Source: Oscillibacter sp. | GTDB taxonomy: Bacteria > Bacillota > Clostridia > Oscillospirales > Oscillospiraceae | Assembly: GCF_032018205.1 (NCBI RefSeq) | Contig: NZ_DALZOY010000001.1 | Span: forward strand, 72,618 to 136,617 | DNA length: 64,000 nt | Direction: 5' to 3' | Part shown: positions 13,493 to 29,621 of the stretch, one piece after another | Layout of the letters: each line of letters begins with the position of its first letter | How positions within the stretch are numbered: position 1 is the first letter of the stretch | The notes under the pieces: generated by a model | Database searches by the model: none | What the model was told of the DNA's origin: nothing | Seen by the model: the letters and a program-made list of their open reading frames with translations, nothing else | Position numbers and translations under genes: made by a program

Positions 13493-14518
13493 ATGCCGAT
13501 GTCGGAGGTGCTTTCACAAAGCCAAATCGACGCGCTACTCAGCGCGGCGCGAAGCGGGGATAAGATTGAAACCGAGGAAGACACGTCGAAGGATAGAAAA
13601 TACAGGAAGTACGACTTTCGTAGCCCCCGCAAATTTACCAAGGACCGGCTGAAAATGCTGGACAGCATTTTTGAAAATTATTCGAGAAATCTGAATTCCC
13701 GCATCAACGGCCTGATGCACACAAGCTGCGAAATCAACGTGGAATCCGCCGAGGAGCAGCGATATTATGAGTTTTCCAACGCCCTGATTGAGGGCGATGT
13801 TCTGGCGCTGGCCTATATCAAATACGGGGAGGTGCTGGAAGATACTCCGGCGCTGCTGCACATCAGCAAGCCGCTGCTGCTGAGCATGATCGACAGGATG
13901 ATGGGCGGCGAGGGCGAGGTGGACGATGAGTTGGACCCGGAGTACACGTTTACCGATCTGGAGCTGAAGATTCTGGAGGGCCTGAGCGAGTATTTTGTGG
14001 AGAACCTGGGCGAGAGCTGGCAGAATTACATTCAGCTTGAGTTTCAGTACGGGCGCGTGGAGCCAAATCCCACGATGATTCAACCTCTGGGACTGGATGA
14101 AATCGTGGTCATCATGGATTTGACGGCAAAATTTCCAAACTGCGACGGGCATATAAGCGTGTGCCTTCCCGGCATGGTGCTGACCAATGTTTTCAGTGAA
14201 ATCAGCCGCCTTAACACGGCCCATAAAAGTCAGGACGAGGCGGCGGGGAAAGAGATTTTCGAGTCTCTGAAAACCACGGAGATCGATCTGATTGCGGAAA
14301 TCTGCCGCACAAAGCTCCAGCTTAGCGACATCTACCACCTGAACGTGGGAGACGTGATTGATTTGAAGCGGCCCAAAAACTCGGCGGTTCATATCAACAT
14401 CGGCGGGCGGCGCTGGTTTGACGGCGTGATGGGAATACACAACAAAAACATGGCGGTCAAAATAGGAAGGACCTATTACGGGCCGGAGGGAAGGAACGTC
14501 GAACAGGATGGCAGATAA
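13493..14518 (+). CDS. fliM: Flagellar motor switch protein FliM
   Basis: N-terminal CheY-P docking peptide SEVLSQSQIDALLS (alternative ATG at 13499). FliM middle domain and C-terminal SpoA-like domain (LNVGDVIDLKRP...). Confidence 0.95.
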   Translation: MPMSEVLSQSQIDALLSAARSGDKIETEEDTSKDRKYRKYDFRSPRKFTKDRLKMLDSIFENYSRNLNSRINGLMHTSCEINVESAEEQRYYEFSNALIEGDVLALAYIKYGEVLEDTPALLHISKPLLLSMIDRMMGGEGEVDDELDPEYTFTDLELKILEGLSEYFVENLGESWQNYIQLEFQYGRVEPNPTMIQPLGLDEIVVIMDLTAKFPNCDGHISVCLPGMVLTNVFSEISRLNTAHKSQDEAAGKEIFESLKTTEIDLIAEICRTKLQLSDIYHLNVGDVIDLKRPKNSAVHINIGGRRWFDGVMGIHNKNMAVKIGRTYYGPEGRNVEQDGR

Positions 14519-15989
14519 CATTTTTAACTCCATGGAGCTGGACGCAATCGGGGAAGTGATGAACATCAGCCTCGGTTCCTCCGCCACGGCGGTGTCCAAC
14601 CTGCTGGATCATCGGGTGGAAATCACCACACCCAGAGTCAGCGTATCCGATGTGGCAGATTTTAATATTGCCGATCTGGAACCTGCCGTGGGCGTGGAGA
14701 TTCGCTACATATCCGGCTTGGTGGGCAGCAATATCATGCTGCTGCGCCGCAGCGATGTGAAAGTGATCGTGGATATTCTGATGGGCTCGGAGACGCCGGA
14801 CGAAGAGTTTGAGATGAACGAGCTTACCATCAGCGCGGTGTGCGAGGTCATGAACCAGATGATGGGAGCGGCTTCCACGGCCCTGTCTGACTTTCTGGGG
14901 ATTCCGGTAAACATTTCTACACCGGAGTCATTTGAACTGCAAGATTTTGACCAATTTAAAAAAGAGCACTTTCCCATGACGGACGGTAAATGCGTGGTTG
15001 TGCGCTTCATGCTGAAAATCGACAGCGTGCTGCAAAGCGAATTTATCAATGTCATGTCCGTGGATTTGACAAGGGAACTGCTCTCAGGCCTTGGACTTGG
15101 CGAGGATGAGGACGCGGCGCCTCCGGAATCCACTTCCTCGGATCAACTGGCAGCACCACTGGAAGGCGGCCCAAAGCTGAGCCAGTCGGAAATAGAAAAG
15201 CTGATGAGCAGTGCGCAGACCGCTCCGCCTCCGGCTCCTGCCGCCTCCGGCGGCACACTGAGTCAGGATGAAATAGAAAAGCTGATGAGCGGTTCGCAGG
15301 CGGCTCCGTCTCCCGCTCCCGCTGGAGGCGTGATGAGTCAGGCTGAGATTGAAAAGCTGATGAGCGGCGCTCAGGCGGTTCCCAATCCGGCTCCCGGTCC
15401 CGCCGCCTCCGGCGGTACCCTGAATCAGGAGGAAATCGAGCGGTTGATGAGCGGTATGTCGACTCCGGCACAGCCGATTGCCGCCCCACAGCCTCCGATT
15501 CCCCCACAGCCCGCCGCCCCGGCCTATCCCGTTCAGGAGCCTCAGGCCATCCCTGGCGGGGCGCCGCCCATGCCGCCCTATGGACAGTATCCGGGCTATT
15601 ATCCGTCCCAGCCCTATTATCCGGCTCCCGGTCCCGCCCCCGCAGTGCACGCGCCCAGGGTGATTCAATCCGTTCCGGCGGAGATGCCGCACTTTGCAAA
15701 CGGCGAGCCGCTGGATCAGCAGCAGGCGGAAAATCTGGATCTGCTGATGTCGGTTCCTCTGGAGGTTTCCGTGGAGATCGGACGGGCCCGCCGGAAGGTG
15801 CAGGACGTGCTGGCCTTTACCAAAGGGTCACTGGTAATGCTGAACAAGCTGGCAGGCGATCAGGTGGACCTGTTTGTTAACGGACAGTGCATCGCCAAGG
15901 GCGATGTGGTTGTCGTGGATGACAATTTTGGAATCCGCATCACCGAGGTTTTAAAAGCCCCCGATCCCAACGAGCTGGTCAAGGGATAA
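14508..15989 (+). CDS. fliY: Flagellar motor switch phosphatase FliY (CheC-like domain + long repeat linker + FliN domain)
   Basis: Two intact CheC-type motifs, DAIGEVMN-x22-P and SAVCEVMN-x22-P. C-terminal FliN/SpoA domain LEVSVEIGRARRKVQDVLAFTKGSLVMLNKLAGDQVDLFVNGQCIAKGDVVVVDDNFGIRITEV. Confidence 0.9.
   Translation: MADNIFNSMELDAIGEVMNISLGSSATAVSNLLDHRVEITTPRVSVSDVADFNIADLEPAVGVEIRYISGLVGSNIMLLRRSDVKVIVDILMGSETPDEEFEMNELTISAVCEVMNQMMGAASTALSDFLGIPVNISTPESFELQDFDQFKKEHFPMTDGKCVVVRFMLKIDSVLQSEFINVMSVDLTRELLSGLGLGEDEDAAPPESTSSDQLAAPLEGGPKLSQSEIEKLMSSAQTAPPPAPAASGGTLSQDEIEKLMSGSQAAPSPAPAGGVMSQAEIEKLMSGAQAVPNPAPGPAASGGTLNQEEIERLMSGMSTPAQPIAAPQPPIPPQPAAPAYPVQEPQAIPGGAPPMPPYGQYPGYYPSQPYYPAPGPAPAVHAPRVIQSVPAEMPHFANGEPLDQQQAENLDLLMSVPLEVSVEIGRARRKVQDVLAFTKGSLVMLNKLAGDQVDLFVNGQCIAKGDVVVVDDNFGIRITEVLKAPDPNELVKG
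15177..15452 (+). repeat. Four tandem in-frame copies of an 11-aa LSQxEIEKLMS peptide inside fliY
   Basis: LSQSEIEKLMS at 15177-15209, LSQDEIEKLMS at 15258-15290, MSQAEIEKLMS at 15333-15365 and LNQEEIERLMS at 15420-15452. The periods are 81, 75 and 87 nt. Read directly from sequence and translation. Confidence 0.95.
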
Positions 15990-16050: not shown

Positions 16051-16416
16051 ATGGCTAAGATTTTAGTGGTTGACGACGCAGCATTTATGCGCAAGGTCAT
16101 TAAGGACACTCTTTCCAAGAACGGATATACCGAGCTGTTTGAAGCGGTGGACGGTGCGGACGCCGTGGAGAAATATGGGGAGATTCACCCCGATCTGGTC
16201 ATCATGGATATCACCATGCCCAATATGGACGGGCTGGAAGCCCTGAAAACCATTCGCGGCAAGGACGGCAACGCCAATGTGGTCATGTGCTCCGCTATGG
16301 GACAGGAGAGCATGGTCATCGACGCGGTGCGTTCCGGCGCAAAGGATTTCATTGTCAAGCCCTTTAAGGCTGACCGCGTGCTTAAGACGGTGAACTCCAT
16401 CATCGGTAATCCCTGA
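16051..16416 (+). CDS. cheY: Chemotaxis response regulator CheY
   Basis: 121-aa stand-alone receiver: ILVVDDAAFMR...DLVIMDITMPNMDG...SAMGQ...KDFIVKPF. Confidence 0.95.
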   Translation: MAKILVVDDAAFMRKVIKDTLSKNGYTELFEAVDGADAVEKYGEIHPDLVIMDITMPNMDGLEALKTIRGKDGNANVVMCSAMGQESMVIDAVRSGAKDFIVKPFKADRVLKTVNSIIGNP

Positions 16417-19753: not shown

Positions 19754-21856
19754 ATGAGAAGACTTGCAAACAACATCATATCTCTCCTCGTGGTCGTCAT
19801 CGTCCTGTTTTTGATTCTGCCGCTTCCCCCAATGATGATGGACATTCTGCTGATTATCAACATCTCGCTGTCCATCGTGATTCTGCTGATTACCATGAAC
19901 ATCTCGGACGCGCTGGAATTTTCCATTTTTCCCTCGCTGCTGCTGGTGACCACGCTGTTCCGATTGGGACTGAACGTGTCCTCCACCCGGTTGATTCTCT
20001 CCAACGGAGGCTATGCGGGCGCCGTGATTAAGGCGTTTGGTCAATTGATTACCAACGGGAATATTGTCATCGGTGTCATCATCTTCCTGATTATTGTGCT
20101 GATGCAGTTCATCGTTATCACCAAGGGAGCCGAGCGCGTGGCCGAGGTGGCCGCCCGCTTCACACTGGACGCTATGCCCGGCAAACAGATGGCCATTGAC
20201 GCGGATCTCTCCTCCGGCCTGATTAACGAACAGGACGCGCGGACTCGCCGGGAAAAGGTGCAGCGTCAGGCGGATTTTTACGGCGCAATGGACGGCGCAA
20301 CCAAAATCGTCAAGGGCGACGCCATTATGAGCCTGATTATTACCACCATCAACTTTGTGGCGGGACTGGTGATCGGCATTGTGCAGGGTGGCGGAGACTT
20401 CGCAAGCGTTTTGCAGGTGTATTCCATCGCCACCGTGGGCGACGGGTTGGTGTCCCAGCTCCCCGCGCTGATGATTTCCACCGCCACGGGTATGATTGTT
20501 ACCCGCAGCGTGTCTGAGGACAGCCTGAACAACGATGTGCTCCGGCAGTTCAAGGCCCAGCCCCGGGCGATTATGGTGGCAGGTATCGTGCTTTTATTCT
20601 TGGCAGTTATGCCCAACACGCCTCATCTGGCCCTGCTGGTGGTGGGCACCGCACTTACATTTTGGGGCTGGCGAGGCCTGCAAAGCATGCAGACGGAGAA
20701 AACGCAGCTTGCTGCGCAGGAGGAAAAAGAGGCTGTCGAGGCCGCGCAGGCTGCCAAGGCTCCCGGAGAAAACGAGTATTATAAGGACATTAACAATATC
20801 TATTCTCTGCTGGATGTGGAACCCATTGAAATGGAATTTGGATACAGCCTGATCCCGCTGGTGGACGAGGCACGGGGCGGGCGGCTCATCAGCCGCATCG
20901 TCATCTTCCGTCGCCAGTATGCTCAGGACATGGGCTTTGTGGTCCCCTCGGTGCGGCTGCACGACTCTGCAACGCTTGGCACCAATCAGTATGTCATTAA
21001 GATTAAGGGCGAGGAGGTCGCCAAGGGCGAAATCCTTGTGGACTATTATCTGGCGCTGGAGCCCACGACTCCCAGCGGCGAGATCGACGGCATTGAAACC
21101 ATCGAACCGGCATACGGCATTCCCTCCCGCTGGATTTTGCCGGAAAGTCGGGAAATGGCGGAGATTTACGGGTATACCGTCATTGACCCCCTCTCCGTGA
21201 TGCTGACGCATCTCTCCGAAACCATTAAAAAGCATGTGTACGAGCTGCTGGACCGGGAGGAGACAATCCGGCTGGCGGAAAACCTGAAAAAGGCTGCCCC
21301 CCAGTTGGTGGAGGAAACCATTCCCGCTCTGATCTCCTATGCGATGCTGGAGCGGATTTTGCGAAGCCTTTTGAAGGAGGGCGTCCCCATCAAAAACTTG
21401 GGCACCATTGTGGAGGCCGCTGCGGACGCCATGAATACCACTCGGGACCCGGATTTGATCACCGAGGCGGTTCGATCGGCTTTGACCCGGACCATTACCC
21501 GCCGCTTCTGCGAGCATGGGCAGCTTCGGGTGGTAACGCTGGACGCAGAGGTGGAAAAGCAAATCGTTTCCTCCCTCACCAAAAACGATCAGGGTGTGTA
21601 TTTGGCAATGGGCGCGGACATGATGCAGCAGATTGTCTCCCAACTGGGGGAATCCGTGAAAAGGTTTGCAGAGTTGGGGCAGACCCCCGTCATTCTCACA
21701 AGCCCTGTCATCCGTGTGTACTTGAGCAGAATGCTGTCTCAGTTTTTCCCCAATCTGTATGTGCTGTCCTTCAATGAGATTACAACGGATATTCAGATTC
21801 AGGCACTTGGCAACATCACGATGCAGCAGAAGAAGGAGACGGTGGAAAAGGTCTGA
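19754..21856 (+). CDS. flhA: Flagellar export gate protein FlhA
   Basis: 700 aa. FHIPEP-type region (ITKGAERVAEVAARFTLDAMPGKQMAIDADL) and a large cytoplasmic C-terminal domain. Confidence 0.95.
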   Translation: MRRLANNIISLLVVVIVLFLILPLPPMMMDILLIINISLSIVILLITMNISDALEFSIFPSLLLVTTLFRLGLNVSSTRLILSNGGYAGAVIKAFGQLITNGNIVIGVIIFLIIVLMQFIVITKGAERVAEVAARFTLDAMPGKQMAIDADLSSGLINEQDARTRREKVQRQADFYGAMDGATKIVKGDAIMSLIITTINFVAGLVIGIVQGGGDFASVLQVYSIATVGDGLVSQLPALMISTATGMIVTRSVSEDSLNNDVLRQFKAQPRAIMVAGIVLLFLAVMPNTPHLALLVVGTALTFWGWRGLQSMQTEKTQLAAQEEKEAVEAAQAAKAPGENEYYKDINNIYSLLDVEPIEMEFGYSLIPLVDEARGGRLISRIVIFRRQYAQDMGFVVPSVRLHDSATLGTNQYVIKIKGEEVAKGEILVDYYLALEPTTPSGEIDGIETIEPAYGIPSRWILPESREMAEIYGYTVIDPLSVMLTHLSETIKKHVYELLDREETIRLAENLKKAAPQLVEETIPALISYAMLERILRSLLKEGVPIKNLGTIVEAAADAMNTTRDPDLITEAVRSALTRTITRRFCEHGQLRVVTLDAEVEKQIVSSLTKNDQGVYLAMGADMMQQIVSQLGESVKRFAELGQTPVILTSPVIRVYLSRMLSQFFPNLYVLSFNEITTDIQIQALGNITMQQKKETVEKV

Positions 21857-21924
21857 TTGAATTTTGAAGTCTGGCGCGGCGCATGCGGCTTTATAAGAGC
21901 TTTGCGAAAGGAGGGGGCAGAAGC

Positions 21925-22782
21925 GTGAGTGATACGGCTGTTTTAAACAATCACACGGAAGAAGCTCTCTCCAAAACGCTTCTGACGGAGCGGGAGCTGG
22001 AGGCCCTGCCCACCGACGAGCTGCTGAGCCTTTATAAGCGCACGGGAGCGGAGGCGTACAAGTGGCCTCTGGTGCTGCGGTACGAGGGGCTGATTAAAAG
22101 CATCGCCCTGCAAATCTGTGGCGTGTACAACGGCTTTGCCCAAGTGGACGACATTGTGAACGAGGGCATTCTCACATTGATGAACTCTGTGGATAAGTTC
22201 GACCCCGAAAAGGGCGCGAGATTTGAAACCTATGTGTCCAAGCGCATCCGGGGTATGATTATCGACCTTGCCCGCCAACAGGACTGGCTGCCCCGCAGCG
22301 TGCGCCGCCGTGCACGGGAGATTGATCAGGCGGTGAGCAGTCTCAATAACCACTTGGGCCGCTTTCCCACCGACGAGGAGATTGCCGGGCACATGGGCCT
22401 GAGCGTGGAGAAGTATCGGGAAGATGCGGCAGCGGCCGCCTTTTGCAACATTGTTTCGCTGGAGGCGCTGTTTGAACGCCGCAGCGAGGGGGACACGGGT
22501 GTTTCCATTCCGGCGGCGGAAGACCTCTCGCCGGAGGACAGCGTGCAGCAAAAGGAGCTGCGGGAGCTGCTGGGCGACGGAATCCGGGCGCTGCGAAAAA
22601 ATGAGCAAATGGTGCTGTCCCTGTATTACGAGCGGGGACTGAATATGCGGAACATCGCGCAAGCCATGGACATCAGCGAGCCCCGCGTGTCGCAGATTCA
22701 CAGCCGGGCTATTCAAAAATTACGCGTGTATCTGGGGCCCTATATGGGGCAAAAGCCGGAGCGCGGCGAGAAAAGAGAGTGA
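21925..22782 (+). CDS. fliA: Flagellar sigma factor, FliA/SigD (sigma-28) family
   Basis: ORF 21883..22782. The GTG at 21925 follows an AAGGAGGGGG RBS. Region 2 (DDIVNEGILTLMNSVDKFDPEKGARFETYVSKRIRGMIID) and region 4 (LNMRNIAQAMDISEPRVSQIHSRAIQKLR) are present. Confidence 0.9.
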   Translation: MSDTAVLNNHTEEALSKTLLTERELEALPTDELLSLYKRTGAEAYKWPLVLRYEGLIKSIALQICGVYNGFAQVDDIVNEGILTLMNSVDKFDPEKGARFETYVSKRIRGMIIDLARQQDWLPRSVRRRAREIDQAVSSLNNHLGRFPTDEEIAGHMGLSVEKYREDAAAAAFCNIVSLEALFERRSEGDTGVSIPAAEDLSPEDSVQQKELRELLGDGIRALRKNEQMVLSLYYERGLNMRNIAQAMDISEPRVSQIHSRAIQKLRVYLGPYMGQKPERGEKRE

Positions 22783-24317: not shown

Positions 24318-24349
24318 GGGTGCGCCTCCGGCGCGGAAAGGGAAGTCGC

Positions 24350-24976
24350 ATGGAGATTAAAAGTTATGAGGATTTGAACGGGCTGGAGATTGATACGCTC
24401 AAGGAGATCGGGAGCATTGGCACGGGAAACGCCGCCACGGCGCTTTCCCAGATGATTGGCAAAGAGGTCCGCATCACTCTGCCGGAGGTTCGGATTATGG
24501 GCTATAACGAAGCCATTGAGTGGATTGGCGGGCCTGAGGCCATCACCGCCGGGGTTTTGAGCCAGCTTGGCGGCGAAATCAACGGCATTATGCTCTCCGT
24601 GCAGCAGATGGATTTCATCAATCTGGTGCTGTCCAATGTGCTGGGAAAGCCTGTGTCGGATTTCAATATGCTGCGGGAAATGGAAATCTCCACACTGGTG
24701 GAGGTGGGCAACATCATGATTTCCACATTTATCAACGCCCTCAGCGGTCTTGCCGACATCTCCATCCGGCTGACGGTTCCGGCCTTCGCCGTGGACATGC
24801 AGGGCGCGATTCTCACGGTACCCATGGCGGCTTACGGCGGCCAGTCGGACTATATCATGACCATCGGCGGCAACTTTGTGTGCGACGGAAGGCAGGTTCC
24901 CTGCCGGCTGCTGCTCTCGCCGGATATCCGGTCTTTGAATTTCCTCCTGCGAAAGTTGGGCGTAATGGATGAATGA
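24350..24976 (+). CDS. cheC: Chemotaxis protein CheC (CheY-P phosphatase family)
   Basis: ORF 24320..24976 with an ATG at 24350. The first motif is DTLKEIGS-x22-P, with Ser where the consensus has Asn. The second motif, STLVEVGN-x22-P, is intact. Confidence 0.85.
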   Translation: MEIKSYEDLNGLEIDTLKEIGSIGTGNAATALSQMIGKEVRITLPEVRIMGYNEAIEWIGGPEAITAGVLSQLGGEINGIMLSVQQMDFINLVLSNVLGKPVSDFNMLREMEISTLVEVGNIMISTFINALSGLADISIRLTVPAFAVDMQGAILTVPMAAYGGQSDYIMTIGGNFVCDGRQVPCRLLLSPDIRSLNFLLRKLGVMDE

Positions 24977-25448
24977 CAAGCTGATTGTCGGTATTGCCGA
25001 CATGAAACTGGCGCAGGAGGGTGAGAAGCTGATTACCTATGCGCTGGGCTCCTGCATTGGAATCTGTCTGTACGAGCCGAATCGCCGTCTGGCGGCGCTG
25101 ATACACATTATGTTGCCGCTGAATATGGAAACCGGGCGGAAAAACACCTTTAAATATGCGGATACCGGCATCCGCGCCACACTGCGGGAGATGGAGATGA
25201 AGGGCGCTTGCCGGGCTGCCATCACGGCGAAAATTGCAGGCGGAGCCCGCATGTTTGAGGTTTCCGGTGGTAGCCTTGGCAATATCGGTCAACGCAACGG
25301 AGAAAGCGTCCGTCAGATTTTGAAGATGGAGAAAATTCGGCTGGTCTGGGAAGATGTGGGCGGTACCGTTGCCCGCACCATGGAGTTTGACGGCGCCACG
25401 GGAAGCGGTATTATTCGATCCTATGGATATCCTGAAATTAAATTCTGA
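24969..25448 (+). CDS. cheD: Chemoreceptor glutamine deamidase CheD
   Basis: IVGIADMKLA...LITYALGSCIGICLYEP...ALIHIMLP are CheD catalytic Cys/His motifs. Overlaps the cheC stop. Confidence 0.9.
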   Translation: MNDKLIVGIADMKLAQEGEKLITYALGSCIGICLYEPNRRLAALIHIMLPLNMETGRKNTFKYADTGIRATLREMEMKGACRAAITAKIAGGARMFEVSGGSLGNIGQRNGESVRQILKMEKIRLVWEDVGGTVARTMEFDGATGSGIIRSYGYPEIKF

Positions 25449-25569
25449 GCCGATGGCTTATGGGGATTCCCCAATTAAATAAACAGTGTGCTGCGCCGGG
25501 AACCGACACGCCCGCAGAGTCGGAGGCCTTCTCCGGCAAATGGGCGGGCACCGTGAAAGGAATGACGTT

Positions 25570-26502
25570 ATGGGACAGAGCAACAGCAATATTTTGCTGG
25601 AAACGGGAACCAATGAAATTGAAATTATGGAGTTCACCGTCAATGATAATCTCTTCGGCATCAACGTGGCCAAGGTCCGGGAGATTATGCTGTCCGCGCC
25701 GGTGAAGTCCATGCCACACGTTCACCCGGCGGTGGAGGGTATTTTTAAACCGAGGGATCAGGTAATTACGGTCATTAACCTGCCGAGGTTTCTGGTGGAC
25801 ACGGACGTGGAGAAGCAGGGCAAGGACTTGTTTATCGTCACGAATTTCAACATGATGTACGTTGCTTTCCGGGTCCACAGCGTGGTGGGCATCAGCCGTA
25901 TCTCCTGGCGGGACATTCAAAAGCCGGACAAGACCATTTCCGGCGGCGCGGACGGCGTGGCCACCGGTATCGCCCAGTGCGGCGACGATTTGGTGACCAT
26001 TCTGGACTTTGAAAAGATTGTGGCGGAGATTGCTCCGGAAACGTCCATTCAAGTCGGTGAAATTGACCGGATGGGGCCCCGGATTCGCAGCGACCGGCCC
26101 ATTTACCTCGCGGAAGACTCCCTGCTTTTGAGCCAGATGATTCGGGAAGCGCTGGGCAAGGCGGGCTATACCAACCTGCATGCCTATCCCAACGGACAGG
26201 AGCTGTGGGACGAGCTGATACAGATGAAGGCCCGGGGAACCGCACCGGACGAGGTGGCCATGGTCATCACCGACATCGAAATGCCTCAGATGGACGGGCA
26301 TCACCTGACAAAGCTCATCAAGGATGATCAGCTTCTGCGGAAAATTCCCGTGGTGCTGTTCTCCTCCCTGATTTCCGAGGAAATGAGGATTAAGGGCAAG
26401 CAGGTGGGTGCGGACGAGCAGCTTTCCAAACCTGAAATCGGACATCTGGTATCCGTCATGGACCAGCTTTTGAGCAAGGCGGCCCCGGCGGAAAAAGCAT
26501 GA
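25570..26502 (+). CDS. cheV: Chemotaxis coupling protein CheV (CheW-like + receiver domain)
   Basis: ORF 25486..26502 with the likely ATG at 25570. The N-terminal half is CheW-like (EIMEFTVNDNLFGINVAKVREI). The C-terminal half is a receiver (IYLAEDSLLL...MVITDIEMPQMDG...SKP). Confidence 0.85.
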   Translation: MGQSNSNILLETGTNEIEIMEFTVNDNLFGINVAKVREIMLSAPVKSMPHVHPAVEGIFKPRDQVITVINLPRFLVDTDVEKQGKDLFIVTNFNMMYVAFRVHSVVGISRISWRDIQKPDKTISGGADGVATGIAQCGDDLVTILDFEKIVAEIAPETSIQVGEIDRMGPRIRSDRPIYLAEDSLLLSQMIREALGKAGYTNLHAYPNGQELWDELIQMKARGTAPDEVAMVITDIEMPQMDGHHLTKLIKDDQLLRKIPVVLFSSLISEEMRIKGKQVGADEQLSKPEIGHLVSVMDQLLSKAAPAEKA

Positions 26503-26517
26503 AAGCGATGAGTGGGA

Positions 26518-27786
26518 ATGAGAAAGGACCGAAATAAGAACAAATACATCGTCCGCCAGCCCATCCGTAACGCTCAGAAGCAGTCCATCGGCTACGAGAT
26601 TTTGTACCACGGAGAAAATCAGGCATTCTGTGGGCTGATGAGTGACAAGGAATTTGCCGCTGCGGACACGGTGTATAACTTCCTGATTCAGAACACCGAC
26701 AAGCTTTTAAAGGGTTCGTTTTATTTTATGACCTTTACGGCCACGCTGCTGCTGAAAAAAACGCCGGACCTGTTCGATCGGTCGGAGCTGGTGATTCAGA
26801 TTGACGACAGCGTGATCATTCATCCGGCGGCGCTGGGCGCTGTGCATGAATATGCAGCCAAGGGCTATCGAATCGCGGTGAACGAGTTTCAGTTTCTGCC
26901 CCGGTATCTCGCATTGCTTGACACAATCGACTATCTAAAGCTGAATTTTGCCACCACCAGCGAAGAGAAGCTTAAAAATATCATCGAAATTGCCCACAGC
27001 CTGAAAAAACTGTGCATTGCCACCAATGTGGACACGGAGGAGCTGTATGCCAAGGCGGAAGAACTGGGCGTGGACGCCATGGAGGGCACCCGCGTGGCGG
27101 AGAAGCTGGCCACCAAAATTCACAACAGCGGCTATCTGCAAAGCAACTTCTTCCGCCTGATTGTGGCCATGAGCCGGGAGGAGCCTGAGATTGGCGAGGT
27201 GGAGGAACTGGTTTCCGTGGACGCCACCTTGAGCTATGCGCTGCTGCGGCTGGCCAACTCCTGTTATTTTGCCCGCCGCAACCGGGCCACCACCGTGCGT
27301 CAGGCCATCATGACAGTGGGGCTGAACCAGCTTCGCCAGTGGGTCTATCTTCTCAGCGCCAACAACGCAGAGAACGAGATGGATGCCGACGCGGAGGAAT
27401 TTTTGAAGCTGTCCCTCCTGCGGGGCACTTTTTGCAGCAAGCTGATGAAGTATGCCACAGGCATGGCCATTTCCACATCCGATGCATACCTTATGGGTAT
27501 GTTCTCCACGCTGCACTATCTGATTGACGCGCCAATGGAGGAAATATTGGAGGAGATTCCGGTTCCGGAGGCTGTCAAGGCCGCGCTGCTGCACCGCGAG
27601 GGCAGAGCAGGTCAGCTTTTTGAGCTGGCACTATGCTATGAGCGGGCGGACTGGAACGGGGTTGCCGCCGCCACAGAAGCGCTGGGCATCCCGGCGAACC
27701 TGCTCACGGGGACTTATTTTGCCTGTGTGGACGACGTGAACAGCATCTGGACGCAGGTGACCAACCCTCGCCCGGACGACGGCTGA
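26518..27786 (+). CDS. Degenerate EAL domain + HDOD domain signalling protein
   Basis: EAL-like N-terminal half (YIVRQPI...GYEILYH). Most catalytic positions are substituted (see findings). The HDOD-like C-terminal half reads VSVDATLSYALLRLANSCYFARRNRATTVRQAIMTVGLNQLRQWV. Last gene of the plus-strand operon. Confidence 0.8.
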   Translation: MRKDRNKNKYIVRQPIRNAQKQSIGYEILYHGENQAFCGLMSDKEFAAADTVYNFLIQNTDKLLKGSFYFMTFTATLLLKKTPDLFDRSELVIQIDDSVIIHPAALGAVHEYAAKGYRIAVNEFQFLPRYLALLDTIDYLKLNFATTSEEKLKNIIEIAHSLKKLCIATNVDTEELYAKAEELGVDAMEGTRVAEKLATKIHNSGYLQSNFFRLIVAMSREEPEIGEVEELVSVDATLSYALLRLANSCYFARRNRATTVRQAIMTVGLNQLRQWVYLLSANNAENEMDADAEEFLKLSLLRGTFCSKLMKYATGMAISTSDAYLMGMFSTLHYLIDAPMEEILEEIPVPEAVKAALLHREGRAGQLFELALCYERADWNGVAAATEALGIPANLLTGTYFACVDDVNSIWTQVTNPRPDDG

Positions 27787-27808
27787 GCCAGCATTTGAAA
27801 ACATGAAG

Positions 27809-27850
27809 AGCGCTCCTCCTCTGCAATTAAGCAGAGGAGGAGCGCTTTTA
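27809..27850 (+). terminator. Rho-independent terminator of the fla/che operon
   Basis: AGCGCTCCTCCTCTGC / GCAGAGGAGGAGCGCT form a 16-bp perfect stem with loop AATTAA, followed by TTTTA. Confidence 0.7.
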
Positions 27851-27905
27851 TCGACATATCAAACGACTGCTTGTGGAAGCACTGATTTTCAGTTCACATA
27901 TAAAG

Positions 27906-27938
27906 AAGCTCCCGCCGCATACGCGGCGGGAGCTTTTT
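27906..27938. terminator. Bidirectional terminator-like hairpin
   Basis: AAGCTCCCGCCGC / GCGGCGGGAGCTT form a 13-bp stem with loop ATAC. TTTTT follows on the plus strand and TTCTTTAT follows on the minus strand. It is a candidate terminator for the flagellin transcript. Confidence 0.6.
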
Positions 27939-28121
27939 CTTGCTTGTCTCGCAACCCTCGTCCTGTCGGTGGAAAATACGAAGTATTTTCTTCCGACGCG
28001 CCCCGTCTCCCTATCCCGCGAAAGCGCTCTGCGCTTTCGCGGGAAGAGGAGGAGCAAGGGAATGAAGCGACGTTTTCGCCCCAAGGCGGAAACAGAGCGA
28101 AATGGACTTTGCTCCGACGAC

Positions 28122-29621
28122 TTACTGCAGCAGCTGCAGCACGCCCTGAGGAACCTGATTGGCCTGAGCCAGCATGGCCTGAGCGGACTGAACCAGAATG
28201 TTGTTCTTGGTGTAGTCCATCATTTCCTTGGCCACATCCACGTCGCGGACAGTGGACTCGGCGTCCTGGATATTCTCGGTCATGACGCCCAGGTTGTTGA
28301 TGGTGTGGTCCAGACGGTTCTGGAGAGCACCCAGCGTGCCACGGGTGGAAGAAACGCTGTTGATGGCGTTCTTCAGCTTGTCAATGGCGGCGGTAGCGCC
28401 CTCCTGCGTGGAGATATCAATGCCGTCAATGCCCAGCGCGGAAGCATGCATGTCGCCCACCGAGACAGACAACTGGTTGAACGACTCAGCAGTGTCGCCA
28501 ATCTGCAGGGTCAGACCGCTGCCGTTGGAGGTGACATTCAGAGTCGTAGCCGTAGAATCGTAGTTGACTGTGACATTCTTGATGCCGTTGTCTTCCAAGG
28601 CTTTTTGGAGATTGGCAGTCGTAGCGGCAGCATCTGAGCCAAGTTCAACGCCAATGGTTCCATCCGGAACATCGGCAGTATTTCCACCCGGAGCAACAAA
28701 GGAGAACGTCTTACCGCCAATGGAAACACTGTCTCCACCAGCCAGAGCCGCACCGAGGGCAATGGATTTACCAGCACCGGTGCCAGCAACCGCGCCATCG
28801 GCGGCCGCAGGGGCAGCCAGAGCGTCGGCGTCGCTGTCGCTGGTGGCAAGGCCAGTGACCTGAGGAGCATTAGCACCCTTGGTCTTGCTGGTCAGAACCA
28901 ATTTCTGACCGTCGTTGGAAACATCGAACATGCCGGAGAGGGTGGAGTCCTTGGAAATGGCCTCGCGGATGTTCTTAAGGGTACCGGCGGCGTCTGCGCC
29001 GGTCTCATACGTCACCTTTGCATTCTTGGAGGTTCCATCGGTGTCCGTATAGGTAACAGTAAATTCAAAGGACTTTGCTGATGTGCCTGCACCAACTGCT
29101 CCGCTCGTGAAGCTGGAAGCGGTAGCTGCAATATCTGTGGTAGCATCGGCCAGAGCTGCGCCGTCGATAACAGCCTTACCAACGGATACATCGCTTCCCA
29201 GAGAGCCGTCCAGCAGCTTGATGCCGTTGAAGTTGGAGCTGTCGGCGATACGGTCGATTTCAGAGGTGAGCTGGGAAACTTCCTTCTGGAGGTTCGCCCG
29301 GTCAGTCTCGTTATCATAGGTGCCGTTGGCGGACTGGTCAGCCAGAGTCACCATGCGGTTGAGCATGTCGTGAACTTCGGTCAGCGCGCCTTCAGCGGTC
29401 TGCACCAGGTTGATGCCGCTCTTGGCGTTGGAAGAGGCCTGCTCCAGACCGGAGATCTGCGCCCGCATCTTCTCGGAAATGGCAAGACCGGCGGCGTCGT
29501 CGCCTGCGCGGTTGATCCGATAGCCGGAAGACAGCTTCTCAAGGTTCTTGCTCAGAGCGGAAGTGTTGCTGGAATAGTTGCGATAAGAGTTCATCGCCAT
29601 GATATTGTGTTGGATACGCAT
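28122..29621 (-). CDS. fliC: Flagellin
   Basis: ORF 28122..29636. The ATG at 29621 sits behind a GGAGGT RBS (29629-29634). N terminus [59 protein letters not shown] and C terminus ...[34 protein letters not shown] are canonical flagellin termini. Confidence 0.95.

What the first reader, a model, noticed from the sequence alone, without database searches (positions are those of the whole stretch)
15177..15660. FliY carries four internal tandem copies of a CheY-P-docking-like peptide instead of one N-terminal copy
FliY (14508-15989) starts directly with its CheC-like domain. Both [D/S]xxxExxN-x22-P phosphatase motifs are intact. It ends in a FliN/SpoA domain.

The linker between these domains holds four copies of an 11-aa peptide: LSQSEIEKLMS, LSQDEIEKLMS, MSQAEIEKLMS and LNQEEIERLMS. 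Each is followed by a 14-18-aa Pro/Ala/Gly spacer. A P/Y/Q-rich tract of about 65 aa follows (15453-15660).

The peptide closely resembles the LSQxEIDxLL motif that docks CheY-P at the N terminus of FliM. FliM here has SEVLSQSQIDALLS, beginning at the 13499 ATG. My recollection is that B. subtilis FliY also carries the motif at its N terminus. In this FliY the N-terminal copy is absent, and the motif is internal and quadruplicated.

The copies share near-identical DNA (GAAAAGCTGATGAGC), which suggests recent in-frame duplication.

A multivalent CheY-P capture arm on the C-ring phosphatase would be an unusual switch/adaptation architecture. I do not know of a description of it.
Basis: partly seen in the sequence, partly recalled or inferred. 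Interest (0 to 1): 0.7.

Follow-up and report, generated by a model that had tools for sequence, protein, structure and literature searches.

The report
FliY with internal tandem CheY-docking motifs
In this Oscillibacter genome the flagellar-motor phosphatase FliY lacks the usual signal-protein docking peptide at its start and instead has four copies in a floppy internal linker; this layout turns out to be common in two families of gut Clostridia, I found no description of it, and its binding partner has not been tested.

Summary
ORF 14508-15989 is a bona fide FliY: a CheC-like domain with both phosphatase sites intact, plus a C-terminal FliN/SpoA domain. It starts directly with the CheC domain. 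Its ~200-aa Pro/Ala/Gly-rich linker carries four copies of [LM][SN]QxEIE[KR]LMS.

A profile built only from such internal copies hits nothing but FliY linkers and FliM N-termini among 2041 ORFs of 80 related loci. In the six-frame window it hits only the four copies and the FliM N-terminus. The repeat is therefore the "EIDAL" CheY-P/FlhG-docking motif class, with a consistent variant flavour (IE[RK]LM rather than IDALL).

The layout is not unique to this genome. It is clade-wide in Oscillospiraceae and Lachnospiraceae, with 0-6 copies. Motifs are conserved while spacers drift, and copies are homogenised within lineages.

FliY proteins with the classical N-terminal motif have flhF-flhG after flhA (5 of 5 loci). 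Those without it never do (0 of 58).

Best reading: relocated, multiplied CheY-P docking peptides that feed the FliY phosphatase and the switch. Binding is untested, and the AlphaFold fusion model was inconclusive. I rate it a new variant of a known kind, of moderate interest.

The parts
13493..14518 (+). fliM (341 aa). Its N-terminal EIDAL-type motif LSQSQIDALL lies at about 13511-13540.
   Evidence: Pfam FliM plus FliMN_C. The motif profile scores it at 10.6 bits.
14508..15989 (+). fliY (493 aa), which overlaps the fliM stop by 11 nt.
   Evidence: The product is 100% identical to P0001, from Oscillibacter sp..
14508..15122 (+). CheC-like phosphatase domain (aa 1-205). Active-site motifs lie at aa 12-42 (14541-14633) and aa 109-139 (14832-14924). 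There is no N-terminal docking peptide.
   Evidence: Pfam CheC twice. PDB 4HYN (T. maritima FliY middle domain) matches at E = 1e-31. The site residues are invariant columns in A1. The NF005995 match starts at profile position 32.
15123..15731 (+). Low-complexity Pro/Ala/Gly/Ser/Gln-rich linker (aa 206-408) between the CheC and FliN domains.
   Evidence: Composition. In the AlphaFold2 fusion the 28-aa segment before motif 1 (aa 196-223, which includes linker residues 206-223) has pLDDT below 50.
15177..15209 (+). Motif copy 1, LSQSEIEKLMS.
   Evidence: Scores 21.3 bits.
15258..15290 (+). Motif copy 2, LSQDEIEKLMS.
   Evidence: Scores 26.8 bits.
15333..15365 (+). Motif copy 3, MSQAEIEKLMS.
   Evidence: Scores 25.7 bits.
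15420..15452 (+). Motif copy 4, LNQEEIERLMS.
   Evidence: Scores 25.4 bits.
15453..15660 (+). Pro/Tyr/Gln-rich tract (aa 316-385).
   Evidence: Similar Tyr/Pro-rich tracts occur in related Oscillospiraceae FliY proteins.
15732..15989 (+). FliN/SpoA domain (aa 409-493) plus the stop codon.
   Evidence: Pfam FliMN_C. TIGR02480 fliN. PDB 1O6A and 1YAB.
16051..16416 (+). cheY (121 aa), the presumed ligand of the motifs.
   Evidence: Pfam Response_reg. T. maritima CheY structures 1TMY and 4IGA match at E = 2e-40.
19754..22782 (+). flhA (19754-21856) followed directly by a sigma-70-family factor gene (21883-22782). No flhF or flhG lies between them.
   Evidence: No FlhF or MinD-type Walker A motif occurs in any frame of the window.
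24320..26502 (+). cheC (24320-24976), cheD (24969-25448) and cheV (25486-26502), forming a B. subtilis-type adaptation set.
   Evidence: Pfam CheC, CheD, and CheW plus Response_reg.

Best explanation
**What it is.** FliY here is the C-ring-resident CheY-P phosphatase. Its CheY-docking peptide has been moved from the N terminus into the disordered CheC-FliN linker and multiplied to four copies.

**How it most likely works (inferred).**
- Each copy is a short amphipathic helix ([LM]SQxEIE[KR]LM). It would bind the alpha4-beta5-alpha5 face of CheY/CheY-P, as the FliM and classical FliY N-terminal peptides do.
- The copies are strung on flexible Pro/Ala/Gly spacers of 14-18 aa. Together they would act as a multivalent "fishing line" anchored to the base of the C ring by the FliN domain.
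- This would raise the local CheY-P concentration next to FliY's two EXXN active sites, and next to FliM. It would speed signal termination at the motor and perhaps buffer CheY-P.
- Copy number is tuned lineage by lineage through unequal recombination within the repeat array.

**Shown versus inferred.**
- Shown: the domain identity, the intact active sites, the absence of an N-terminal copy, the motif-class identity, conservation under selection, and the clade-wide distribution.
- Inferred: the binding partner, the kinetic consequence, and any benefit of multivalency.
For: **1. Motif identity.** An HMM was built from 144 FliY-internal instances. At 8 bits or more it hits only FliY linkers (115 hits) and FliM N-termini (55 hits) among 2041 ORFs of 80 loci, and no other protein. 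The same holds in the window. The logos share the core [LM]-S-Q-x-[EQ]-I-[DE]-x-L-[LM].

**2. Selection on the peptide.** Among 11 relatives at 89-100% identity, pairwise column identity is 0.93 for motif columns and 0.75 for spacers. All indels fall in the spacers. The four copies use different synonymous codons for the conserved residues.

**3. Breadth.**
- Of the 120 closest homologues, 117 match a strict motif pattern 1-6 times, always after the CheC domain and never at the N terminus. The 3 others that I inspected carry degenerate copies.
- Of 69 complete FliY proteins from GTDB species genomes, 46 have 1-4 internal copies. Three have one N-terminal copy and 20 have none.
- Variants such as LDQSAIDALLNGGG x3 occur in other relatives.

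**4. A matching enzyme.** Both phosphatase sites are intact. The gene sits in fliM-fliY-cheY order, in a fla/che locus that also has cheC, cheD and cheV.

**5. A matching ligand.** CheY is very close to T. maritima CheY, which is solved with a FliM peptide in 4IGA.

**6. Model behaviour.** In the AlphaFold2 fusion, the motif forms the only helix outside CheY (residues 150-158). Its pLDDT is about 60, against less than 50 for the linker.

**7. Precedent.** From established knowledge (Szurmant et al. 2003; Sircar et al. 2013; not read here), the N-terminal peptide of B. subtilis and T. maritima FliY binds CheY. CheY binding to the EIDAL motif of FliM is quoted in PMC6946799.
Against: - There is no binding or activity data.
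- The AlphaFold2 fusion gave only about 60 pLDDT for the motif and no coordinates, so docking is not demonstrated.
- The internal copies differ systematically from FliM N-termini at three positions. D becomes E at the position matching E. coli FliM D12 (95% E against 100% D). A becomes R/K at the next position. L becomes M at the last. This could mean altered affinity or a different partner.
- Twenty of 69 complete FliY proteins in related genomes have no motif anywhere yet keep the active sites. The peptide is therefore dispensable for a FliY.
- The same motif class is also the FlhG docking site.
Confidence: 0.6

Rival explanations
1. The internal motifs are docking sites for the MinD-like ATPase FlhG, which controls flagellar number and placement, rather than for CheY. 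This would mirror the reported use of the N-terminal EIDAL motif of FliY or FliM by FlhG.
For: - The literature states that the EIDAL motif of FliM is necessary and sufficient for FlhG interaction. In B. subtilis FlhG binds FliY rather than FliM (PMC12826062).
- Motif position in FliY tracks flhF/flhG. All five informative loci with an N-terminal FliY motif have flhF-flhG right after flhA.
Against: - That same association argues against FlhG as the partner here. None of 38 loci with internal motifs, and none of 20 loci with no motif, has flhF/flhG downstream of flhA. A sigma-factor gene follows directly.
- The 64-kb window has no FlhF-type or MinD-type Walker A motif in any frame.
- An flhG elsewhere in the genome could not be excluded.
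Confidence: 0.1
2. The motifs bind CheY-P, but their main role is not substrate delivery to the phosphatase. They would act as extra switch-input or buffering sites. They would hold CheY-P at the C ring, changing motor sensitivity and cooperativity or shielding CheY-P, as FliM-N does.
For: - The motif-identity evidence is the same as for the best explanation.
- The motifs lie on the FliN-proximal side of a roughly 200-aa tether, close to the base of the C ring.
- Many FliY proteins keep intact active sites without any docking peptide. Catalysis therefore does not need the peptide.
Against: - FliM keeps its own N-terminal motif in most of these genomes, so an extra input site is not obviously needed.
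- No data separate this reading from the phosphatase-tether model, and the two are not mutually exclusive.
Confidence: 0.2
3. The repeat is a neutral low-complexity expansion or an assembly artefact with no function.
For: - The linker is compositionally biased.
- Copy number varies from 0 to 6 among relatives.
- In several lineages the units are 95-100% identical in DNA.
Against: - The motif is much better conserved than the spacers (0.93 against 0.75) and carries synonymous changes.
- The same 10-residue core is kept across two families of Clostridia.
- The identical protein is found in two independent assemblies, and ten near relatives also have four copies.
- The window's copies are only 72% alike in DNA, so they are not prone to collapse or expansion during assembly.
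Confidence: 0.03
4. The repeats mark internal translation starts, as in SctQ/SpaO-type genes. These would yield a short FliN-like isoform whose N terminus carries the docking motif.
For: - Copy 3 starts with ATG and is preceded by GGAGG (GCT GGA GGC GTG ATG).
- 35% of all internal copies start with Met, and a Gly-Gly usually precedes them.
Against: - Across loci, SD-like 4-5-mers upstream of Met-type copies (12%) are no more frequent than upstream of Leu-type copies (16%).
- The Gly codon that would create GGAGG (GGA) is rare before Met-type copies, at 1 of 24.
Confidence: 0.03

Closest known systems
Classical FliY of Bacillus subtilis and Thermotoga maritima (NCBIfam NF005995; middle-domain structure PDB 4HYN)
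   Same: - CheC-like middle domain with two D/S-x3-E-x2-N-x22-P sites.
- C-terminal FliN/SpoA domain.
- Gene next to fliM and cheY in a fla/che operon.
- Scores above the family cut-off.
   Different: - The classical protein has one CheY-binding (EIDAL) peptide at the extreme N terminus and a short, motif-free CheC-FliN linker.
- Here the N-terminal peptide is absent and the profile match starts at position 32.
- Four copies sit in a roughly 200-aa linker.
- Classical-type loci carry flhF-flhG; this one does not.
FliM N-terminal CheY-P docking peptide (the "EIDAL motif", LSQxEIDALL)
   Same: - Same sequence-motif class. It is the only other thing the internal-repeat profile detects.
- It is a short helix next to disordered sequence.
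   Different: - FliM has a single copy at the N terminus, with D-A-L-L where the FliY internal copies have E-[RK]-L-M.
- Binding of the FliY internal copies to CheY-P is not shown.
CheC and CheX stand-alone CheY-P phosphatases
   Same: Same catalytic fold and EXXN sites. A cheC gene lies in the same window.
   Different: They have no FliN domain, no C-ring anchoring and no docking peptide.
FlhG-EIDAL interaction in flagellar number control (FliM-N in Shewanella and Vibrio, FliY in B. subtilis)
   Same: The same peptide motif class serves as the docking site.
   Different: No flhG lies in this locus or in any of the 58 related loci that lack an N-terminal FliY motif.

Membership tests
FliY (CheC-FliN fusion C-ring phosphatase) | CheC-like domain with two D/S-x3-E-x2-N-x22-P active-site motifs | tested here: met
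   Pfam CheC gives two stretches. D12/E16/N19/P42 and S109/E113/N116/P139 are present and are invariant columns in A1.
FliY (CheC-FliN fusion C-ring phosphatase) | C-terminal FliN/SpoA (FliMN_C) domain | tested here: met
   PF01052 at aa 412-482, E = 1.2e-21. TIGR02480 scores 94.7 bits against a cut-off of 84.
FliY (CheC-FliN fusion C-ring phosphatase) | Whole-protein score above the curated NCBIfam equivalog cut-off | tested here: met
   NF005995 scores 300.5 bits against a cut-off of 218.
FliY (CheC-FliN fusion C-ring phosphatase) | N-terminal CheY-P-binding peptide preceding the CheC domain (B. subtilis and T. maritima type) | tested here: not met
   The protein starts 11 residues before the first active-site Asp. 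The profile match begins at position 32. No upstream extension is possible. The motif is internal instead.
FliY (CheC-FliN fusion C-ring phosphatase) | Location beside fliM in a flagellar/chemotaxis operon | tested here: met
   The order is motA-motB-fliM-fliY-cheY-fliOPQR-flhB-flhA.
FliY (CheC-FliN fusion C-ring phosphatase) | CheY-P phosphatase activity and incorporation into the C ring | not testable with these tools
   This needs biochemistry or cryo-ET.
EIDAL-type CheY-P docking peptide | Sequence core [LM]SQxEI[DE]xL[LM] | tested here: met
   The four copies score 21-27 bits. A profile built from internal copies finds only FliM N-termini outside FliY. Logos are compared.
EIDAL-type CheY-P docking peptide | Position at the extreme N terminus of a C-ring protein | tested here: not met
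   The copies start at aa 224, 251, 276 and 305 of 493.
EIDAL-type CheY-P docking peptide | Binds the alpha4-beta5-alpha5 face of (phospho-)CheY | tested here: inconclusive
   In the AlphaFold2 fusion of CheY, linker and motif, CheY has pLDDT above 90 and the motif helix about 60. No coordinates or PAE were available. The single-sequence run was uninformative.

The most novel reading that the evidence does not exclude
In a large clade of Clostridia that lacks flhF/flhG in the flagellar operon, FliY has dropped the N-terminal EIDAL peptide. This would imply that in classical FliY the N-terminal peptide is kept mainly for FlhG. In its place the clade has evolved a copy-number-variable array of a variant peptide (EIE[RK]LM) in the CheC-FliN linker. 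Every FliY subunit of the C ring would then be a multivalent CheY-P trap. Signal-termination rate and motor sensitivity would be tuned by repeat number, which changes quickly through unequal recombination.
Probability: 0.3. Interest if true: 0.7.

Novelty: new variant of a known kind. Interest (0 to 1): 0.55.

Why it matters
FliY is the main CheY-P phosphatase in the Firmicute-type chemotaxis pathway, and it acts at the motor itself. A natural series of FliY proteins with 0 to 6 tethered docking peptides would allow a direct test. One could ask how local substrate capture and multivalency set the speed of signal termination and the sensitivity of the flagellar switch.

The clean split between two FliY classes also matters. 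N-terminal-motif FliY comes with flhF/flhG, and FliY with internal or no motif comes without. This offers a way to separate the two known jobs of the EIDAL motif: CheY-P docking and FlhG docking.

The organisms concerned, Oscillospiraceae and Lachnospiraceae, are abundant motile gut anaerobes. Their motors have hardly been studied.

Tried and rejected
1. **Assembly artefact.** Rejected. The identical protein appears in two independent assemblies, near relatives also have four copies, and the copies are only 72% alike in DNA.
2. **PF28396 as a described family for the repeat.** PF28396 is precomputed on most homologues. It is SepQ_C, a weak hit next to or over the FliN domain, and it is absent from some multi-copy proteins. 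It is unrelated to the motif.
3. **Internal translation start at Met-type copies.** No SD enrichment was found.
4. **AlphaFold2 of a CheY-linker-motif fusion.**
   - The single-sequence run was useless, with mean pLDDT 49.6.
   - The run with 55 CheY homologues folded CheY well but left the motif at about 60 pLDDT. No coordinates were returned, so it is inconclusive.
5. **Pfam scan of the linker alone.** It gave only sub-threshold chance hits.
6. **Literature.**
   - Only five held papers mention both EIDAL and FliY. [quoted passage not shown]
   - Sircar 2013 and Muff & Ordal 2008 are not held.
   - Two broad searches returned nothing useful.
7. **CheY surface changes against motif flavour.** I looked by eye at the fusions for co-variation between CheY surface residues and motif flavour. 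I saw no simple charge complementarity and did not pursue it.
Full report
**1.

The ORF at 14508-15989 (+) encodes a 493-aa protein.
- Pfam finds two CheC stretches and a C-terminal FliMN_C domain at aa 412-482.
- The NCBIfam FliY equivalog NF005995 scores 300.5 bits against a cut-off of 218. The alignment starts at profile position 32 at residue 4, so the N-terminal segment of the family profile has no counterpart.
- The ORF begins at the first start codon after an in-frame stop. It overlaps the fliM stop by 11 nt and follows a purine-rich stretch. An N-terminal extension is therefore impossible.
- Both phosphatase signatures are intact: D12-x3-E16-x2-N19-x22-P42 and S109-x3-E113-x2-N116-x22-P139. 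These columns are invariant in a 24-sequence alignment of diverse relatives.
- The closest solved structures are the T. maritima FliY middle domain (4HYN, E = 1e-31) and FliN (1O6A, 1YAB).

- 15177-15209: LSQSEIEKLMS
- 15258-15290: LSQDEIEKLMS
- 15333-15365: MSQAEIEKLMS
- 15420-15452: LNQEEIERLMS

The spacers are 16, 14 and 18 aa, and a P/Y/Q-rich tract follows (15453-15660). FliM (13493-14518) carries SEVLSQSQIDALLS at its N terminus.

One detail needs correcting. The DNA copies are not near-identical.
- Tandem Repeats Finder gives a period of 81 nt, 3.3 copies and 72% matches.
- The 33-nt motif DNA matches at 23-29 of 33 positions between copies.
- Conserved Ile, Glu, Ser and Leu are written with different synonymous codons.

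**2. Not chance, not an artefact**

I built an HMM from 144 non-redundant internal FliY instances and ran it on all 2041 plus-strand ORFs of 80 related genomic loci.
- At 8 bits or more it hits 115 positions in FliY linkers and 55 FliM N-termini.
- It hits nothing else.

On the six-frame translation of the window (665 segments, 82 k residues) the result is the same. The four copies score 21-27 bits and the FliM N-terminus 10.6. The next best segment scores 6.7.

The identical 493-aa protein is present in a JGI metagenome contig of 240 kb and in an independent Logan assembly. Ten further cluster representatives at 89-97% identity also carry four copies. One near relative has five and one has three.

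**3. What it is**

The window comes from an Oscillibacter sp. (family Oscillospiraceae).

It carries a B. subtilis-type fla/che locus:
- the rod gene flgC, then fliF-fliG-fliH-fliI-fliJ-fliK-flgD-flgE;
- flbD, motA, motB;
- fliM-fliY-cheY-fliOPQR-flhB-flhA;
- a sigma factor gene, rod genes, cheC, cheD, cheV, and an EAL/HDOD protein gene.

CheY is very close to T. maritima CheY (E = 2e-40).

The internal-motif layout is a clade property rather than a peculiarity of this genome.
- Of the 120 closest homologues (at least 50% identity; Oscillibacter, Intestinimonas, Lawsonibacter and others), 117 match a strict pattern 1-6 times, always after the CheC domain and never at the N terminus. The 3 that do not match carry degenerate copies such as LSQDEIGQLI.
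- A search of 1.84 billion cluster representatives shows three classes:
  - (a) the CheC domain starts at about aa 12 and there are internal copies. These include variants such as LDQSAIDALLNGGG x3, MDQSSIDRAL x2 and LDQDAINAML x2.
  - (b) the same start but no motif.
  - (c) the classical type, with one N-terminal copy and the CheC domain starting at about aa 32 or later.
- I fetched 80 loci from GTDB species genomes. They come from Oscillospiraceae, Butyricicoccus, Caproiciproducens, Clostridium aminobutyricum, and Lachnospiraceae such as Lacrimispora, Hungatella, [Clostridium] symbiosum, Oribacterium, Dorea and Acetatifactor. The 69 complete FliY proteins have 0 (20), 1 (14), 2 (18), 3 (15) or 4 (2) copies. 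Three of the single-copy ones are N-terminal.

**4. Selection and dynamics**

Among 11 four-copy relatives (89-100% identity), mean pairwise column identity is as follows:

| Region | Identity |
|---|---|
| CheC domain | 0.99 |
| FliN domain | 0.99 |
| 40 motif columns | 0.93 |
| P/Y/Q tract | 0.83 |
| Spacers | 0.75 |

- Every indel lies in a spacer.
- The position-specific variants are kept across these relatives: first copy LSQSEIE, last copy LNQ[EA]EIERLM (LSQEEIERLM in P0011). This four-copy array is therefore older than their divergence, and "recent duplication" does not describe this gene.

Elsewhere the array is dynamic.
- Within one protein, 42-nt units are on average 87% identical. 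Between proteins they are 63% identical.
- Several lineages have 95-100% identical units.
- The repeat period ranges from 24 to 44 aa.
- This is the signature of repeated unequal recombination, or concerted evolution, with purifying selection on the peptide.

**5. Relation to the known motif**

The logos from 478 internal copies, 76 FliM N-termini and 15 classical FliY N-termini share [LM]-S-Q-x-[EQ]-I-[DE]-x-L-[LM]. The internal copies have a consistent flavour, G-G-[TK]-[LM]-S-Q-E-E-I-E-[RK]-L-[ML]-x-G.

| Position | Internal copies | FliM N-termini |
|---|---|---|
| Matches E. coli FliM D12 | 95% Glu | 100% Asp |
| Next position | 82% Arg/Lys | 72% Ala |
| Last position | 64% Met | 96% Leu |

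This is compatible with the same binding mode. From memory of structure 1F4V, which I did not check here, FliM D12 pairs with CheY K119 and Glu could do the same. A shifted affinity or a different partner is equally possible.

**6. The FlhG angle**

The EIDAL motif has a second documented partner, the MinD-like ATPase FlhG.
- FlhG binds FliM-N in polar flagellates and FliY in B. subtilis (PMC12826062).
- In the window, flhA (ending at 21856) is followed 27 nt later by a sigma-factor gene. No FlhF-type or MinD-type Walker A motif exists in any frame.
- Of the 61 loci with at least 2.2 kb downstream of flhA, all 38 with internal motifs and all 20 with no motif have the sigma gene adjacent and no flhF/flhG. 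The 3 with an N-terminal FliY motif have flhF-flhG (Pfam-confirmed).
- Two further N-terminal-class proteins with enough context, P0254 and P0268, also have SRP54-type and ParA-type genes right after flhA.

The association is therefore 5 of 5 against 0 of 58. It is phylogenetically clustered, and it says nothing about flhG copies elsewhere in the genome. Still, it makes FlhG an unlikely partner of the internal copies. It also suggests that the N-terminal copy of classical FliY is tied to FlhG.

**7. Structural test**

- A fusion of the window's CheY, 28 residues of natural FliY sequence ahead of motif 1 (aa 196-223), motif 1 and its spacer was uninformative without an alignment, with mean pLDDT 49.6.
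- With 55 CheY homologues, CheY folds at pLDDT above 90 and the linker stays below 50. The motif forms the only extra helix (residues 150-158) at about 60 pLDDT.
- No coordinates or PAE are returned, so this neither shows nor excludes docking.

**8. Mechanism proposed**

Probability about 0.6. FliY is anchored at the base of the C ring by its FliN domain. Its roughly 200-aa disordered linker presents four amphipathic helical peptides that bind CheY/CheY-P at the alpha4-beta5-alpha5 face. They concentrate substrate for the two EXXN sites of the adjacent CheC-like domain and near FliM. Copy number tunes capture.

- Shown: domains, active sites, motif class, conservation, distribution.
- Inferred: the partner, the kinetic effect, multivalency.

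The rivals are:
- buffering or switch-input rather than substrate delivery (0.2; not exclusive of the main model);
- FlhG docking (0.1);
- a neutral repeat or artefact (0.03);
- an internal translation start (0.03). SD-like sequences are no commoner before Met-type copies (12%) than before Leu-type copies (16%).

**9. Novelty**

The protein is a FliY by every sequence, domain and gene-context criterion tested, except for the position of the docking peptide; its phosphatase activity and place in the C ring could not be tested. The motif is a known class. What I could not find described is its relocation into the linker, its tandem multiplication with copy-number variation, its variant consensus, and the link to absence of flhF/flhG.

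[quoted passage not shown] Key subscription papers were not available, so prior mention cannot be fully excluded.

Verdict: a new variant of a known kind, of moderate interest (0.55). It gives a clear, cheap experimental path.

Noticed in passing
window 21856-21883 (flhA/sigma junction); loci L001-L080, L083, L086: This locus and 58 related Oscillospiraceae and Lachnospiraceae loci have a sigma-factor gene directly after flhA and no flhF/flhG. The five loci whose FliY has the classical N-terminal motif all have flhF-flhG there.
   Followed up: partly
window 15453-15660: A Pro/Tyr/Gln-rich tract (PPMPPYGQYPGYYPSQPYYPAPGP) lies between the last motif and the FliN domain. Similar Tyr/Pro-rich tracts recur in other Oscillospiraceae FliY proteins. 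Several more distant FliY relatives carry a Gln/Met-rich, helix-like segment there instead (e.g. LLNQMQQSQ..MMEMM). Its function is unknown.
   Followed up: partly
window 26512-27786: A 424-aa protein with a partial EAL match (profile positions 113-234 only) and an HDOD domain is encoded right after cheV in the flagellar/chemotaxis cluster. It may be a degenerate c-di-GMP-related regulator of motility.
   Followed up: no
loci L010-L017, L041, L043, L047, L050-L056 and others (Lachnospiraceae): The gene order differs from the window. cheY lies directly after fliM, and fliY starts about 0.5 kb further downstream, whereas the window has fliM-fliY-cheY. The content of the roughly 0.5-kb gap was not examined.
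   Followed up: no
proteins P0135, P0156, P0166, P0215 (804-863 aa): Some FliY relatives are about twice as long and match the query in four stretches. In P0215 a loose pattern for the first CheC active-site motif matches at aa 119, 320 and 521 and a docking motif lies at aa 30, which suggests tandem CheC modules.
   Followed up: no
window 27803-28285: A 160-aa ORF downstream of the EAL/HDOD gene has no Pfam match.
   Followed up: no
protein P0001 and its relatives: NCBI names these 490-aa CheC-FliN fusion proteins "flagellar motor switch protein FliN", although they score above the FliY equivalog cut-off. Database names therefore hide the FliY identity.
   Followed up: yes
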